From NCBI RefSeq assembly GCF_006345805.1, contig NC_042998.1, positions 158,162,001 to 158,226,000 on the forward strand: 64,000 nt of DNA, given 5' to 3'. The notes beneath the pieces are model-generated. The model saw only the letters and a list, made by a program, of their open reading frames with translations. It had not been told where the DNA came from and searched no databases. The translations under genes were made by a program, and so were the position numbers. This document shows, one piece after another, positions 24,428-53,176 of the stretch. Source of the DNA: Octopus sinensis. Its lineage: Eukaryota. The first letter of the stretch is position 1. Each line of letters starts with the position of its first letter.

Positions 24428-24599
24428 TATATATATATATTTCTTTACTGCCCACAAGGGGCTAAATATAGAGGGAACACAAACAAGGACAGACAAACGG
24501 ATTAAGTCGATTATATCGACCCCAGTGTGAAACTGGTACTTTATTTATCGACCCCGAAAGGATGAAAGGCAAAGTCGACCTCGGCGGAATTTATATATA

Positions 24600-25400
24600 A
24601 ATAATAACAAAATAATAACTAAAACATATGCATATATACATACATATATGTACGTACCTACATCTATATGTATATATGCATGCATATATGGGTACAGGAC
24701 ACCAACAAAACGTCGAACACAATGAGAAACGAAAACATAAAAACAAAACCAAGGAAACGGACATTTTTTTAAACAACGAAAAAAACAGAGTACAAGACAT
24801 ACAACACAAGGAAAATTCCCCTTCTTCGGCCGCCTCTGTTTCGTCTACTCCGTGTTTCGAAGGTAAAGGCGAGACACGACTTCTTAGAAACAGTCCTTCC
24901 CGCAAAGCAAATTAAATAAAATTTGAGATTTTTTGCGGAGGGGTAAAAACGGTAAAAAAAAAAACAGGACAGTAAAGACAATACAAATAAAATCAGTAAA
25001 AGACAGGACAAGGAGAATAACAGTAACACAAACTTTAAGGGTTGTTAAGCCTGAACGAAGGAAAAATTATTTTGAACGCTTTGAAAACGGCTTGAGAGGG
25101 ACAGAGAAAGCCGTCTACACTTGTTGGAAGTAGTAGTCAGAAAGGCAGTAGACCTCTGGTCACGTGTCAGTGACAGGAGGTGGGAGAAGGAGTAAGAGAA
25201 AGGGAGAGAAAAAAGGGAAGGGTTGTAGAGAAAACCAGAAAGAATGAAGAATGAGAAAGAGAGAGGGATAGTAAGTTTAGAAGAAAAGGAAACCAGAAAG
25301 AATGAAGAATGAGAGAGGGAGGTGGACAGAAAGGTTAAGAGAGCGCATATATAGTTTAGTTTTTCTGTTAAAGTAAGATTAACCCAAAAAGTATTCCCAA
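24600..25400 (-). mobile_element. Dispersed repeat family X, copy C; carries the rearranged hammerhead motif at 24818-24879
   Basis: Aligns by eye with 28301-28845, 32150-32935 and 52570-53170 (e.g. gtaggtacgtacatatatg, ttcgacgt...ggtgtcctgtac, cttcgaaac, gaagaagggga). Confidence 0.85.
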
Positions 25401-25465: not shown

Positions 25466-25579
<114 letters not shown>

Positions 25580-26115
25580 AAAGGGCTTAGTAAAATAAAT
25601 TACTTTGCCGCATACTGAACTCGTTAGAAATAGCAGCTAAAAAAACTTTTTATAAAACTATTTCTAACACTTAAAGAAAACCTCTCTCATATAGTGTTTG
25701 CTCAATTCAACTCAAGAAAGTATGAGGGTAGAGACATTAAAAAATCAAATGCAAAGGTTATTTGAGTACGTATTTACTAAGCCCTTTTATATAATGTAAT
25801 AATTTGAATTTGCCTTAAATGGTCCCTTTGCATACTGAATACTTGGTGAAATTGATTAATTAATTAATTAATTTTACCCTCAATTGTTGAAATTATAATT
25901 CATCTCTCTCTACTTAATTGTCTCGGATTTTACCGAAAAAAGCATAGTGTTTGCTGATTTTAACCCACGCTGGTGGAAAGGGGAGAGCAGAAAATTTTCT
26001 CTTGCATATTTGAGTTTGTTGGCACTGTTAGTTTGGAGCAGATCTTCAGAAGCGATAACAAGCCGAAAGGGTATGCTCCCATTTTCAGTGTTTTCAAATT
26101 CAAACAAGGGCATTC

Positions 26116-26168
26116 TGAGCTGATGAGAGAAGGGTCGATTTTGACTAATCTTGAAACGTACGTACTCA
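26116..26168 (+). ncRNA. Minimal type I hammerhead ribozyme, unit 1
   Basis: ugag-CUGAUGA-gaga-ag-gguc-gauuuu-gacu-aa-ucuu-GAAA-cguac-GUA-cuca, with a palindromic stem III region ACGUACGU typical of dimer-forming minimal HHRs. Predicted cleavage after 26164. Confidence 0.85.
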
Positions 26169-26674
26169 AATAACCTTTGCATTTGATTTTTTAATGTCTC
26201 TACCCTCATACTTTCTTGAGTTGAATTGAGCAAACACTATATGAGAGAGGTTTTCTTTAAGTGTTAGAAATAGTTTTATAAAAAGTTTTTTTAGCTGCTA
26301 TTTCTAACGAGTTCAGTATGCGGCAAGTAATTTATTTTACTAAGCCCTTTTATATAATGTAATAATTTGAATTTGCCTTAAATGGTCCCTTTGCATACTG
26401 AATACTTGGTGAAATGATTAATTAATTAATTAATTTTACCCTCAATTGTTGAAATATAATTCATCTCTCTCTACTTAATTGTCTCGGATTTTACCGAAAA
26501 AAGCATAGTGTTTGCTGATTTTAACCCACGCTGGTGGAAAGGGGAGAGCAGAAAATTTTCTCTTGCATATTTGAGTTGTTAGCACTGTTAGTTTGGAGCA
26601 GATCTTCAGAAGCGATAACAAGCCGAAAGGTATGCTCCCATTTTCAGTGTTTTCAAATTCAAACAAGGGCATTC

Positions 26675-26727
26675 TGAGCTGATGAGAGAAGGGTCGATTT
26701 TGACTAATCTTGAAACGTACGTACTCA
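26675..26727 (+). ncRNA. Minimal type I hammerhead ribozyme, unit 2
   Basis: Identical to 26116-26168. Predicted cleavage after 26723, 559 nt downstream of the first site. Confidence 0.85.
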
Positions 26728-27206
26728 AATAACCTTTGCATTTGATTTTTTAATGTCTCTACCCTCATACTTTCTTGAGTTGAATTGAGCAACACATATG
26801 AGAGGGTTTTCTTTAAGTGTTAGAAATAGTTTTATAAAAAGTTTTTTTAGCTGCTATTTCTAACGAGTTCAGTATGCGGCAAAGTAATTTATTTTACTAA
26901 GCCCTTTTATATAATGTAATAATTTGAATTTGCCTTAAATGGTCCCTTTGCATACTGAATACTTGGTGAAATTGATTAATTAATTAATTAATTAATTTTA
27001 CCCTCAATTGTTGAAATTATATATATATATATATATGTAGGACAGCTTCATTCGGTTTCCGTCTACCAGATCCACTCACAAGGCTTTGGTTGGCTTGAGT
27101 ATATAGCACTTGCCCAAGGTGCCACGCAATTGGATTGAACCAGGAACCATGTAGTTGGTAAACAAACTTTTTACCACACACCTACTTCTGCGCGTGTGAG
27201 ATATAT

Positions 27207-28300: not shown

Positions 28301-28845
28301 TTGGTCGACATTCTTTCTCTCTCGTCGTCCACTATAATCCAGCGTTTGCATTACTTTTTTCGTCTGGCGTAAACAGCCCTTCTTATCTTGTTCTCCTTGT
28401 CCTGTCTCTCACTGTTATATATTTATTTTTCAACTGTTTATATATAATTTTTTTTTTTTTACTGTTTATATGTTTGTACTGTCGTTACCGTCTTGCTTTT
28501 TTTACCATTTTTTACCCCTCTGCGAAAAGATCTCAGAATTTTAATTGATTTGCTTTTCGCAGGAAGGAAGTTTCTTCGAAGTATACGTCTCGCTTTTATC
28601 CTTCGAAACGTAGAGTAGATGAAACCTTAGCGACTGAAGAAGGGGATTTTTCGTTGTGCTTATTGTCCTGTATCTCTTTTTTCTTTTTTGCTTGTCCTGT
28701 TCCTTGGTTTGTGTCTATGTTTTTCGTCTCTCTATGTGTTCGACGTCTTTTTGGTGTCCTGTACACATATATGCGTGTATATGTACATGTAGAGGTAGGT
28801 ACGTACATATATGTTTATATATATGCATATGTTCTATTTTATTAA
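28301..28845 (+). mobile_element. Dispersed repeat family X, copy A, flanked by (TA)n
   Basis: Nearly identical to 32418-32935 and more diverged from copies C and D. Confidence 0.88.
28584..28647 (+). ncRNA. Candidate non-circularly permuted (pseudoknotted) hammerhead ribozyme
   Basis: uacGUC|ucgcu-uuu-auccuuc-GAAA-cgua-(16 nt)-agcga-CUGAAGA-aggggau. Stem III is uacgu/Acgua, stem I ucgcu/agcga, stem II ggggau/auccuu beyond an A.C pair. Homologues: 32687-32751 (+), 24818-24879 (-), 52795-52856 (-). Confidence 0.6.
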
Positions 28846-29119
28846 CATATATATATATATATATATACGCGCGCGCAAACACACATACACGCACACAAAA
28901 TGGCAGATCGTTAGGAAGGAGAGGCACAAAAGAGAAAGTAGAAAGCAAAGGACCACTGATTAGGTCACAGAAGTGTGGCAAAAGAACTCTGGCCGAAATA
29001 CAATTAATATCAAATAAAGCTGAAGCAAGTGAACACCAAATATATAGTGCGCGTATTTTCATTGGCTAACCTGGCAACATGACCATCCCCAAAGACAATA
29101 ATATGTGTGTGTGTATTAT

Positions 29120-32066: not shown

Positions 32067-32149
32067 ATCTATTTTATTAACATATTATACGACTAAACGC
32101 ACGCACCCTATTAAGTAAGATTGTTCTGTTTATCAAGTTAGCCTTGATA

Positions 32150-32930
32150 TTAACTCTCACGCGACTCTGCATCTTTCTTTCTTTCTCTCCCATTCCCTTT
32201 TTCGTCTTTTTTCCCTCACTTAACTTGTCTCTTCCTCTCTCTCTCATTCTTCATTCTCTCTCTCCCTTTCACACCATTCTTCTTCATGTCTCCTCGCACC
32301 ATTCCCCTTCTTCTCTCTCTTCCTCTTGCTCCTCCTCCCCCATTCCCGTCGTCCATCTGCGACGATACTTCCGACGTAACTGCTATCCTGTCTTTTCTCG
32401 CCCGCCTTCTAAGGCTACTGGTCGACATTTTTTCTCTCTCGTCGTCCACTATAATCCAGCGTTTGCAATACTTTTTTCGTCTGGCGTTAACAGCCCTTCT
32501 TATCTTGTTCTCCTTGTCCTGTCTCTCACTGTTATATATTTATTTTTCCACTGTTTATATATATATTTTTTACTGTTTATATGTTTGTACTGTCGTTACC
32601 GTCTTGCTTTTTTTAACCCCTCTGCGAAAAGATCTCAGAATTTTAATTGATTTGCTTTTCGCAGGAAGGAAGTTTTCTTCGAAGTATACGTCTCCGCTTT
32701 TATCCTTCGAAACGTTTAGTAGATGAAACCTTAGCGACTGAAGAAGGGGATTTTTCGTTGTGCTTATTGTCCTGTATCTCTTTTTTTGCTTGTCTTGTTC
32801 CTTGGTTTGTGTCTATGTTTTTCGTCTCTCTATGTGTTCGACGTCTTTTTGGTGTCCTGTACACATATATGCGTGTATATGTACATGTAGAGGTAGGTAC
32901 GTACATATATGTTTATATATATGCTATGTT

Positions 32931-32935
<5 letters not shown>
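32150..32935 (+). mobile_element. Dispersed repeat family X, copy B (longer pyrimidine-rich 5' part)
   Basis: 32418-32935 is nearly identical to copy A; the 5' CT-rich part resembles the extension of copy C. Confidence 0.85.
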
Positions 32936-32972
<37 letters not shown>

Positions 32973-49396: not shown

Positions 49397-49461
<65 letters not shown>

Positions 49462-49484
49462 TACTATTATTATTATTATTATTA

Positions 49485-49813
49485 CATGTTTGACTTTTGC
49501 TTTATATTTGTACAAGTTGGATCCAAGTCTCACCCAGAGACCTCAAGAGACAACAGGTTGGAAGTTCATGTTGTTGTTATGCCTAGTGTGCCATATATTT
49601 GGTTTTGTATTTAGTGTTGTACTTGTGAATGTTCTAAAAAAAAACATACGAAAATTATGTTTGTTTTAAAACTTGAGATTACATAGAAAGTATTTTGCGT
49701 AGGATATGAGCAGTTCCCATGAGCACTATCTTTTGAATTAGGTAGCAATCAGCCCCTTTTGCTATAATTCCCAGGGCACCTATGACAACAGTATTGTTTT
49801 AGTCGTCAGGTTC

Positions 49814-49862
<49 letters not shown>

Positions 49863-50191
49863 CATGTTTGACTTTTGCTTTATATTTGTACAAGTTGGAT
49901 CCAAGTCTCACCCAGAGACCTCAAGAGACAACAGGTTGGAAGTTCATGTTGTTGTTATGCCTAGTGTGCCATATATTTGGTTTTGTATTTAGTGTTGTAC
50001 TTGTGAATGTCTAAAAAAAAACATACGAAAATTATGTTTGTTTTAAAACTTGAGATTACATAGAAAGTATTTTGCGTAGGATATGAGCAGTTCCCATGAG
50101 CACTATCTTTTGAATTAGGTAGCAATCAGCCCCTTTTGCTATAATTCCCAGGGCACCTATGACAACAGGTATTGTTTTAGTCGTCAGGTTC

Positions 50192-50193
<2 letters not shown>
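49485..50193 (-). mobile_element. Two tandem 3' fragments of an R4/Dong-like (RLE-endonuclease) non-LTR retrotransposon in (TAA)n
   Basis: Copies at 49485-49815 and 49863-50193. 50193-50056 encodes WNLTTKTIPVVIGALGIIAKG...IQKIVLMGTAHILRKILSM*, typical of the RLE C-terminus. Each copy is embedded in (ATT)n. Confidence 0.8.
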
Positions 50194-50240
<47 letters not shown>

Positions 50241-50336
50241 CACGTATACATACATACACACATACATACATACATACATACATTCATACATACATACATA
50301 CATACATACATACATACATACATACATACATACATA

Positions 50337-52569: not shown

Positions 52570-53170
52570 TATATAAATATAAAATTAATAAATAAATAAA
52601 ACATATGCATATATACATACATATATGTACGTACCTACCTCTACATGTGTATATACATGCATATATGGGTACAGGACACCAAAAAAACGTCGAACACAAT
52701 GAGAAACGAAAACATAAACACAAAACCAAGGAAATGGACATTTTTCTCAAACAACGAAAAAATAGAGTACAGGACATACAAAACAAGGAAAATTCCTTTT
52801 CTTCAGTCGCTTTTGTTTCCTCTACTCCACGTTTCGAAGGTCAAGGCGATACATGACTTTAATGAAACAATCCTTCCCGCGAAAATCAAATTAAATAAAA
52901 TTTGAGATTTTTTTGCGGAAGGGTAAAAATGGTAACAAAAACAGGACAGTAACGACAGTACAAAATATAAACAGTAAAAGACAGGACAAGGAGAATAACA
53001 GTAACACAAACAAGAAGGGCTGTTAAGCCGAACGAGATAAAATATTTTACGAACACTATTTTTTGAGAACGGCGAAGGAGCAACAGAAAGTGCCGTCTCT
53101 ACTTGAAGGCACCCAGGACAGAATGTCAGTAGCAGAGCTCTCGTCGCAGGTCAACGACTGGAGGGAGGAG
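52570..53170 (-). mobile_element. Dispersed repeat family X, copy D; rearranged hammerhead motif at 52795-52856
   Basis: Closest to copy C. The motif reads ucauGUA|ucgcc-uuga-ccuuc-GAAA-cgugg...agcga-CUGAAGA-aaagg. Confidence 0.85.
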
Positions 53171-53176
53171 GAGGAG

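What the first reader, a model, noticed from the sequence alone, without database searches (positions are those of the whole stretch)
28584..28647. Four-copy repeat family carrying a hammerhead whose core strands are in reversed (non-circularly permuted) order
Established: hammerhead types I-III are the three circular permutations of CUGANGA -> GAAA -> NUH. Seen here, the order is NUH -> GAAA -> CUGAAGA, which no circular permutation produces, yet all three stems can form. Copy A: uacGUC|ucgcu uuu auccuuc GAAA cgua (16 nt) agcga CUGAAGA aggggau. Copy C (24879-24818): ucguGUC|ucgccuu ua ccuuc GAAA cacgg..gaggcgg CCGAAGA agggg. Copy D (52856-52795): ucauGUA|ucgcc uuga ccuuc GAAA cgugg..agcga CUGAAGA aaagg. 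Copy B (32687-32751) is like A with a 1-nt insertion in stem I and one stem III mismatch. Stem III pair 15.3:16.3 is G-C/A-U/G.U (A/C/D), 15.4:16.4 is U-A/C-G/U-A, 15.5:16.5 is A-U/G-C/G-C. Stem I pair 5 is U-A in A and C-G in C (mismatched in D). Stem II G.U pairs become A-U in D. The triplet stays NUH (GUC/GUA). Inference: the linkers fit the known 3D fold, 2-4 nt between the adjacent tips of stems I and II and ~15 nt from stem III back to stem I. Caveats: stem II opens with A.C, copy C has U4->C, and some covariation could be CpG decay of an ancestral CGCG/CGCG stem. To my knowledge non-circular HHR permutations have been reported only rarely, and standard type I-III descriptors would miss this one, so novelty needs checking.
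Basis: partly seen in the sequence, partly recalled or inferred. Interest (0 to 1): 0.92.

Follow-up and report, generated by a model that had tools for sequence, protein, structure and literature searches.

The report
Split-core hammerhead ribozyme in animal retroelements
A mobile repeat with thousands of copies in an animal genome carries a probable self-cutting RNA whose parts are wired in an order we did not find described, and the same wiring appears in a group of animal retrotransposons reported to lack such an RNA.

Summary
The four copies are real. They belong to a non-coding, Penelope-type tandem retroelement (unit about 0.8 kb, inserted into (TA)n) with 4,042 exact core matches in the genome. 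The order NUH→GAAA→CUGANGA is the published type SGC (Eckert 2023), so the order alone is not new. Stems I and III covary. The strand before GAAA pairs with an upstream strand, and the bases after A9 close a separate helix X beside a hairpin Y. This inserts a four-way junction between A9 and G10.1, inside a block Eckert assumed unbreakable. The fold holds in six family consensuses in this genome, one of them a Naiad retrotransposon 3′ end. By eye it also fits 11 published Naiad consensuses; six other Naiads read as type CSG. Naiads were reported to lack canonical hammerheads. Cleavage is untested and there is no usable RNA evidence. Monomer versus dimer and the mobilising enzyme are open. The scan had not noted this element; it noted a CSG hammerhead and a ribozyme-less repeat of similar behaviour elsewhere.

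The parts
28302..28858 (+). Copy A: 5′-truncated unit of young subfamily A (unit about 870 nt), flanked by (TA)n
   Evidence: 98% identical to the L011 unit; flanks
28515..28519 (+). Helix X, 5′ strand (CCCCU), pairs with 28641-28645
   Evidence: first pair U-A in families A/C/D/H, G-C in F; also in the MFE fold
28520..28562 (+). Hairpin Y (10-bp closing stem), between X and stem II with 0-nt linkers
28563..28568 (+). Stem II 10.x strand supplied from upstream (GAAGGA; G10.1 = 28563), pairs with 28599-28604
   Evidence: 5-6 Watson-Crick pairs in all six family consensuses, with three different helix sequences
28570..28577 (+). Interaction helix 'I', 5′ strand, pairs with 28618-28625
   Evidence: 5-10 bp in six consensuses with changed sequences; at least 5 bp in 31 of 42 motifs versus 14 of 80 controls
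28584..28594 (+). Block S: stem III 16.x strand, GUC triplet (predicted cut after C28589), stem I 1.x strand
   Evidence: the cleavage site is inferred by analogy, not shown
28599..28612 (+). Block G: stem II 11.x strand, GAAA (28605-28608), stem III 15.x strand
28618..28625 (+). Interaction helix 'I', 3′ strand
28629..28640 (+). Shortened block C: stem I 2.x strand and CUGAAGA (C3 = 28634, G5 = 28636, A9 = 28640)
28641..28645 (+).
   Evidence: duplex energy with X′ -8.5 versus -3.9 kcal/mol with 11.x
32093..32955 (+). Copy B: about one whole unit of subfamily A type; motif 32617-32749 with a 1-nt insertion in stem I
   Evidence: 94% identical over the whole unit; motif positions
24594..25348 (-). 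Copy C (subfamily C); motif 24943-24818, H17 = 24873; U4→C is a minor variant
52572..53176 (-). Copy D (subfamily D); motif 52923-52795, H17 = 52850; private changes in stem I and helix X

Best explanation
The repeat is a non-autonomous Penelope-type retroelement (retrozyme-like, one ribozyme per unit of about 0.8 kb) carrying a hammerhead with a split core. 5′ to 3′ the parts are: X′, hairpin Y, stem II 10.x, I′, block S, block G, I″, stem I 2.x with CUGANGA, X″. The backbone between A9 and G10.1 is replaced by a four-way junction, in which X would stack on Y and stem II on the core. Stems I and II form as pseudoknots across a rod made of helix I and stem III. Shown: sequence, order, copy number, covariation, fixed 3′ ends in (TA)n, variable 5′ ends, head-to-tail partial tandems, and the same fold downstream of an RT remnant in this genome. 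Inferred: self-cleavage after H17; excision of unit-length RNA from tandem transcripts, possibly with circularisation; copying by a PLE reverse transcriptase-endonuclease that nicks (TA)n and starts about 260-270 nt 3′ of the cut site; descent of the ribozyme from a Naiad pseudo-LTR. Whether the active fold is a monomer or a strand-swapped dimer of two units is open; I put it near even.
For: Stem I in 42 motifs whose stems I and III were not fixed by the pattern: 1.1:2.1 is C-G in 19 and U-A in 17, 1.4:2.4 is C-G in 19 and U-A in 19, neither in a CpG context. Watson-Crick fraction 0.895 versus 0.595 shuffled, 0 of 2000 shuffles as high. Stem III 0.778 versus 0.465. H17 is C/U/A (G was excluded by my rule) and N7 is A/U/G. 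Matched control: stems I and III in 32 of 42 versus 0 of 80; strict X/Y junction in 18 of 42 versus 1 of 80. X+Y+upstream stem II: 95% of cells paired, 13 two-sided changes, 0 of 500 shuffles. Families H and Naiad have different stem II sequences (GAGCA/UGCUC, GACACC/GGUGUC) that still pair upstream; all six consensuses have 0-nt X-Y and Y-II linkers; in the Naiad the post-A9 strand gives no stable duplex with 11.x (+1.3 kcal/mol). Naiad pattern: 309 hits, 0 control; RT motifs lie upstream of the same fold in L196. By eye the fold fits 11 published Naiad consensuses with unrelated helix sequences. PLE hammerheads tolerate an unpaired base at the 5′ end of stem II and act as dimers (PMC4209133).
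Against: No cleavage assay. No clear pile-up of 5′ ends at the cut site: about 5-8 of 50 listed matches start there, near what ordinary truncation and microhomology with (TA)n would give (the expectation is my rough estimate), so most copies were made from RNA that spans the site. In the window families stem II is invariant and was fixed by my search pattern, so its support comes from families H and N and from sequences read by eye. Stem III covariation could be CpG decay. Sequences are related, so shuffle counts are not probabilities. Helix X is only 3 Watson-Crick pairs in the G000 Naiad consensus and 50% paired per copy. Nested folding of copy A gives X and Y but not the active stems (z = -1.68). 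Only 10-15 nt separate the tip of stem II from the far end of stem III, 5-10 of them in helix I, which strains a monomer; no 3D model was built. Naiad copies here are decayed while subfamily A is at least 99% identical, so the present mobiliser is not identified.
Confidence: 0.72

Rival explanations
1. Plain type-SGC hammerhead: stem II forms between the post-A9 bases and 11.x, and the upstream strand with helix X is an off-switch conformation.
For: In families A, C, D and F a 4-5 bp G-C/G.U helix can form if one base after A9 is looped out, an insertion known in PLE hammerheads. Type SGC is validated in vitro.
Against: No two-sided change in that helix. It is 2.6-4.2 kcal/mol weaker than the upstream duplex in A, C, D, F and H. 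It shrinks to 3 bp in H and 2 bp in the Naiad, and by eye it cannot form in several published Naiads. The upstream helix always begins at position 11.1 with a G.
Confidence: 0.1
2. A hammerhead-derived fold kept for binding the PLE protein or for structure, with little or no cleavage in vivo.
For: Most genomic copies span the cut site. In the one PLE tested in vitro, hammerhead cleavage was not needed for insertion and no RNA-seq ends mapped to the site (PMC11167929). PLE minimal hammerheads cleave poorly.
Against: The NUH triplet and the core follow hammerhead rules while the helices are rewritten. Those rules are catalytic ones (established knowledge). Spanning copies are also expected from re-ligated circles.
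Confidence: 0.13
3. Chance motif in an amplified repeat; the covariation is CpG decay of one ancestral hairpin.
For: Copies share ancestry; stem III positions 3-5 and stem I position 2 are CpG-explainable.
Against: Non-CpG two-sided changes in stem I and helix X; 0 of 80 matched controls; unrelated helix sequences in families H and N keep every helix.
Confidence: 0.02

Closest known systems
Type-SGC and type-CSG hammerhead ribozymes (Eckert, Friedrich, Weinberg, Weinberg 2023, PMC10085705; main text read through the Discussion; supplement passages)
   Same: Order S-G-C, full core, short 1.x→11.x linker, a helix 'I' joining the far ends of stems I and II, and the same noted difficulty of joining helix I to stem III.
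   Different: There block C (2.x, CUGANGA, 10.x) is assumed unbroken, and the CSG descriptors shown require stem II right after CUGAUGAG. Here 10.x comes from upstream of block S, and helices X and Y sit between A9 and G10.1. [quoted passage not shown]
Naiad clade of Penelope-like elements (Craig et al. 2021, PMC8557442; passages; supplement tables and parts of the FASTA)
   Same: (TA)n targets, partial tandems, fixed 3′ end. The G000 Naiad 3′ end has the same fold. A short AC-rich motif near the insertion 3′ end is shared between the Naiad and subfamilies D and E.
   Different: The paper reports no canonical hammerhead in Naiads, only 'core' and 'half-core' strings. The window element has no ORF and no detectable homology to the Naiad outside the fold and that motif, so descent is inferred.
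Non-LTR retrozymes of animals and PLE minimal hammerheads (PMC4209133 passages; bioRxiv 10.64898/2026.07.22.740005, first part and passages)
   Same: Non-coding head-to-tail units, one hammerhead per unit, tied to PLEs; a dimeric active form is precedented.
   Different: These carry type I hammerheads. The type I descriptors used in that survey would miss this one. Circular RNA is not shown here.

Membership tests
Hammerhead ribozyme | Core CUGANGA, GAAA, NUH with A15.1-U16.1 | tested here: met
   Six family consensuses; the S block was not part of any search pattern
Hammerhead ribozyme | Stems I, II, III with covariation | tested here: met
   Stems I and III; stem II only in the upstream form, across families
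Hammerhead ribozyme | Site-specific self-cleavage after H17 | not testable with these tools
   Needs an assay
Hammerhead types I-III (circular permutations) | Cyclic order C→G→S | tested here: not met
   Order is S→G→C; no hammerhead family among the 150 of 311 Rfam matches listed
Type SGC (Eckert 2023) | Block order S, G, C | tested here: met
Type SGC (Eckert 2023) | Helix 'I' between the far ends of stems I and II | tested here: met
   5-10 bp in six consensuses
Type SGC (Eckert 2023) | Block C unbroken: stem II strand follows A9 within 1-2 nt | tested here: not met
   a weak alternative helix remains possible in A, C, D, F, so this is not met on sequence evidence only
Non-LTR retrozyme | Non-coding head-to-tail units with one hammerhead each | tested here: met
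   Periods 865-880 (A), 802 (C), 790-807 (D), 765 (F); no ORF search was run on the unit, which is pyrimidine-rich and low in complexity
Non-LTR retrozyme | Type I hammerhead | tested here: not met
Non-LTR retrozyme | Circular RNA intermediate | tested here: inconclusive
   Tandem units share 1 private substitution against 33 unshared
Naiad PLE | ORF with N-terminal GIY-YIG and C-terminal RT | tested here: not met
   The window element is a short unit with no such ORF seen; only RT remnants were seen for the G000 Naiad itself
Naiad PLE | (TA)n targets, fixed 3′ end, partial tandems | tested here: met
   Subfamily A: microsatellite begins 239-249 nt after G12 in 27 of 27 scored copies; other PLE clades share these traits

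The most novel reading that the evidence does not exclude
Naiad retrotransposons across animal phyla, and their non-autonomous derivatives, carry non-circularly permuted hammerheads. One form is a split-core topology outside the six permutations proposed in 2023: the catalytic core is interrupted between A9 and G10.1 by a four-way junction. It may cleave only as a strand-swapped dimer of two pseudo-LTRs or two tandem units, so that the ribozyme cuts multimeric RNA and spares monomers.
Probability: 0.55. Interest if true: 0.92.

Novelty: new variant of a known kind. Interest (0 to 1): 0.84.

Why it matters
If it cleaves, the hammerhead core can be built from four strands in a new order, and the A9/G10.1 link can carry whole helices. 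That enlarges the known fold space and offers an insertion point for engineered ribozymes. It would move non-circular RNA permutation from rare metatranscriptome RNAs to thousands of loci in animal genomes. It gives a directly testable answer to why Naiads seemed to be the Penelope-like clade without hammerheads, and it would mean that type I descriptor surveys undercount retrozymes. Six Naiad consensuses read as type CSG, known in the 2023 paper from two sequences.

Tried and rejected
Rfam scan: the 150 of 311 matches listed were microsatellite-driven miRNA models and one Plasmodium sRNA model, all under the gathering score; no hammerhead model among them. Sequencing runs: no RNA holder listed; all runs are contigs. 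Laying four guessed-RNA runs gave no end pile-ups. A depth step near the cut site in X1 and a head-to-tail joint in X4 are uninformative, because the conserved core collects many subfamilies and tandem DNA gives the same joint. 5′-end pile-up at the cut site: not clear. Shared private variants in tandem units: 1 versus 33, little power because subfamily A is nearly invariant. Search for the partner enzyme: the long GIY-YIG ORFs fetched are C-terminal-endonuclease PLEs without this fold, and the unit showed no homology to their bodies in the output seen. A possible intron (GTAAG near the unit junction, CAG|G at G10.1 in A and F) is not kept in C, D, H or N, and no such joint appeared. One search is void: I miscounted the structure string; it was redone. 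The X/Y rows came from a loose search that sometimes chose U-rich strands, so I rely for X and Y. A1 misaligns block S between families, so stems I and III were counted by anchors in a script instead. Subfamily E was not searched for separately.

Full report
1. Observation. In copy A the triplet GUC ends at C28589, GAAA starts at 28605 and CUGAAGA at 28634; stems III and I each have 5 pairs. A three-block descriptor hit 2 times in the window against a mean of 0.05 in 40 shuffles.

2. The element. G000 is a 2.72-Gb animal genome. I infer an octopod because one of its repeats matches the published Octopus Naiad 3′ ends. The core pattern has 4,042 exact matches and 0 for the reversed control. This is a lower bound, since families H and N do not fit the pattern. 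Units lie head-to-tail with periods of 765-880 nt. 5′ ends vary. The 3′ end is fixed: in subfamily A a microsatellite begins 239-249 nt after G12 in 27 of 27 scored copies. At tandem junctions the unit runs on past that point, so copying starts inside the RNA. Internal initiation and AT-rich targets are what a purified PLE protein does (PMC11167929, passages). The ribozyme lies on the strand whose 3′ end is fixed, which by target-primed copying is the template strand (inference).

3. The order is known. Eckert et al. 2023 named S→G→C 'type SGC' and showed that it cleaves. They found no such RNA in genomes of known organisms, apart from one GCS candidate. They assumed that CUGANGA and its adjacent stem II strand cannot be interrupted.

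4. Stems I and III are real. I fetched 40 of the first 60 listed places (20 failed), which gave 42 motifs. The pattern fixed GAAGG, CCUUCGAAAC and CUGANGA but not stems I and III. Stem I: 1.1:2.1 is C-G 19, U-A 17; 1.2:2.2 is U-A 21, C-G 18; 1.4:2.4 is C-G 19, U-A 19. The first and last are not CpG contexts. The Watson-Crick fraction is 0.895 against 0.595 when strands are shuffled between copies. Stem III gives 0.778 against 0.465, but those changes are CpG-explainable. The same anchors in metagenomes gave 80 returned loci; stems I and III formed in 0 of 80, against 32 of 42 here. The copies are related, so these counts are not probabilities.

5. The strand before GAAA instead has a 5-6 bp Watson-Crick partner about 25 nt upstream of the cut site. 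The post-A9 bases pair with a strand just 5′ of a hairpin that ends next to that partner. On 21 aligned copies, helices X, Y and upstream II are 95% paired with 13 two-sided changes, among them U-A→G-C at the pair next to A9 in family F. Stem II is invariant in those families. The better test is two families with other sequences. H (consensus from 7 motifs in 15 fetched loci) pairs GAGCA/UGCUC with a 6-bp X and an 8-bp Y. N (36 anchors in 30 loci) pairs GACACC/GGUGUC, and its post-A9 strand gives only 2 pairs with 11.x. In all six consensuses (A, C, D, F, H, N) the X-Y and Y-II linkers are 0 nt, and a 5-10 bp helix joins the strand after 10.x to the strand before 2.x, which is Eckert's helix 'I'. 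X is weak in N (3 pairs). A strict X/Y junction is found in 18 of 42 G000 motifs and 1 of 80 controls. So the backbone between A9 and G10.1 is replaced by a four-way junction. The fold is equivalent to joining the ends of a CSG ribozyme and reopening it inside the core (inference).

6. Link to Naiads. Craig et al. 2021 reported that Naiad PLEs target (TA)n and lack canonical hammerheads, though some hold a 'core' or a 'half core'. Family N is the 3′ end of such an element: 309 pattern hits, 0 control, a fixed 3′ end into (TA)n, and RT motifs upstream in L196 and L193, with the fold at the 3′ end of L196. I read their supplement by eye and could not compute on it. Of 54 listed Naiad consensuses, the split fold fits 11. 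Eight are named by their FASTA position: Bfor (stem I only 2 bp), Amil, Aacu, Anas, 2_Movir, Obim, Ovul, and Esco (table order). Three more are placed by file order only: a Clytia element, Plae, EuTe. In the Acropora elements, for example, stem II is GGCUCC/GGAGCC, X has 8 pairs and helix I has 10. Six others, in the nematode part of the file, read as plain type CSG. Six with GAAA before the core or an unclear partner I could not resolve. I saw only part of the core-motif places (for CTGATGA, places 1-14 and 23-51 of 62; for the other three motifs, places 1-14), and a line break can hide a motif, so these counts are lower bounds and the unseen elements are untested.

7. How it likely works. 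A tandem transcript folds as a rod (X, Y, helix I, stem III) whose terminal loop (1.x, 11.x, GAA) docks on the free strands at its base (2.x-CUGANGA, 10.x). Cleavage after H17 would release unit-length RNA, which could circularise, as proposed for PLEs. A PLE enzyme would then copy it into (TA)n. In the hammerhead structure stems II and III are coaxial and point apart. Here only 10-15 nt link the tip of II to the far end of III, most of them helical, and in one published Naiad the arm is a nearly continuous 15-bp helix (by eye). A monomer would need a sharp turn or partial melting. Two units could instead exchange loops; dimeric PLE hammerheads are precedented. None of this is shown.

8. Against. 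There is no assay and no usable RNA evidence. 5′ ends do not clearly pile up at the cut site, so templates usually span it, as uncut RNA or as circles. One PLE hammerhead was dispensable in vitro. The Naiad copies are old and subfamily A is young. G000 also holds a young intact PLE family with a C-terminal endonuclease, so the current mobiliser is unknown.

9. Prior art. Searches of the held library: 'non-circular permutation'+'hammerhead'; 'hammerhead'+'octopus'+'retrozyme'; 'Naiad'+'hammerhead'; 'type-SGC'+'hammerhead'; five PLE/permutation terms; structural-variant terms; 'rearranged hammerhead'+'retrotransposon' since 2023 (84); 'octopus'+'hammerhead ribozyme'+'circular RNA'+'Penelope'. 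None of the papers I opened describes permuted hammerheads in Naiads or a helix-bearing break between A9 and G10.1; the others I saw only as listings. Passages of PMC3088659 describe small core insertions. PMC13725137 mentions variants 'containing additional helices' citing three references. One is Eckert; passages of PMC10162972 showed no such variant; I did not identify the third. Most subscription papers are not in the library, and the supplement of the 2026 preprint could not be seen.

10. Verdict. A real, conserved RNA structure, probably a self-cleaving hammerhead in a topology beyond type SGC, carried by a large retrozyme-like family and by Naiad retrotransposons. New variant of a known kind; interest 0.84.

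Noticed in passing
window 25773-27017 (+), cores at 26120 and 26679; inverted piece at 25569-25772: A second tandem repeat (period about 560 nt) with a type I minimal hammerhead and a palindromic stem III, plus an inverted 5′ piece: an ordinary PLE-type retrozyme next to copy C.
   Followed up: partly
window 32057 (-): A type I-like CUGAGGA...GAAA arrangement just upstream of copy B on the opposite strand; stems not checked.
   Followed up: no
window 49436-50245: Tandem of about 379 nt set in (TAA)n; from recall it resembles the 3′ end of an R4/Dong-type non-LTR element.
   Followed up: no
PMC8557442 supplement, Naiad FASTA parts 13-16: Six Naiad 3′ ends read as complete type-CSG hammerheads with an 'I' helix; the 2023 paper had two CSG sequences. 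By eye only.
   Followed up: partly
L109:5100-6600: 482-nt tandem repeat with GAAA before CUGAAGA and 7-8 bp helices, but no clean stem I; possibly another permuted-hammerhead family.
   Followed up: partly
L145, L146, L147; L143, L149: A young PLE family with an intact 781-aa RT-GIY-YIG frame in several copies, and a second family whose pseudo-LTR has a type I hammerhead like those listed for Hydra elements. Candidate mobilisers.
   Followed up: partly
window 28578-28583 with 28613-28617: The internal loop between helix I and stem III keeps GAAG opposite GAGUA in families A, C, E and H (AAAG in D); from recall this resembles a sarcin-ricin/loop E motif.
   Followed up: no
L065, L126, L209; L127; L186: Further families with GAAA before CUGANGA. 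L127 and L186 look like the split fold; the L065/L126/L209 family is cut just before GAAA in all three copies.
   Followed up: no
window 28562/28563: In families A and F a pyrimidine tract with CAG|G falls exactly at G10.1, like a splice acceptor; not kept in C, D, H or N.
   Followed up: partly
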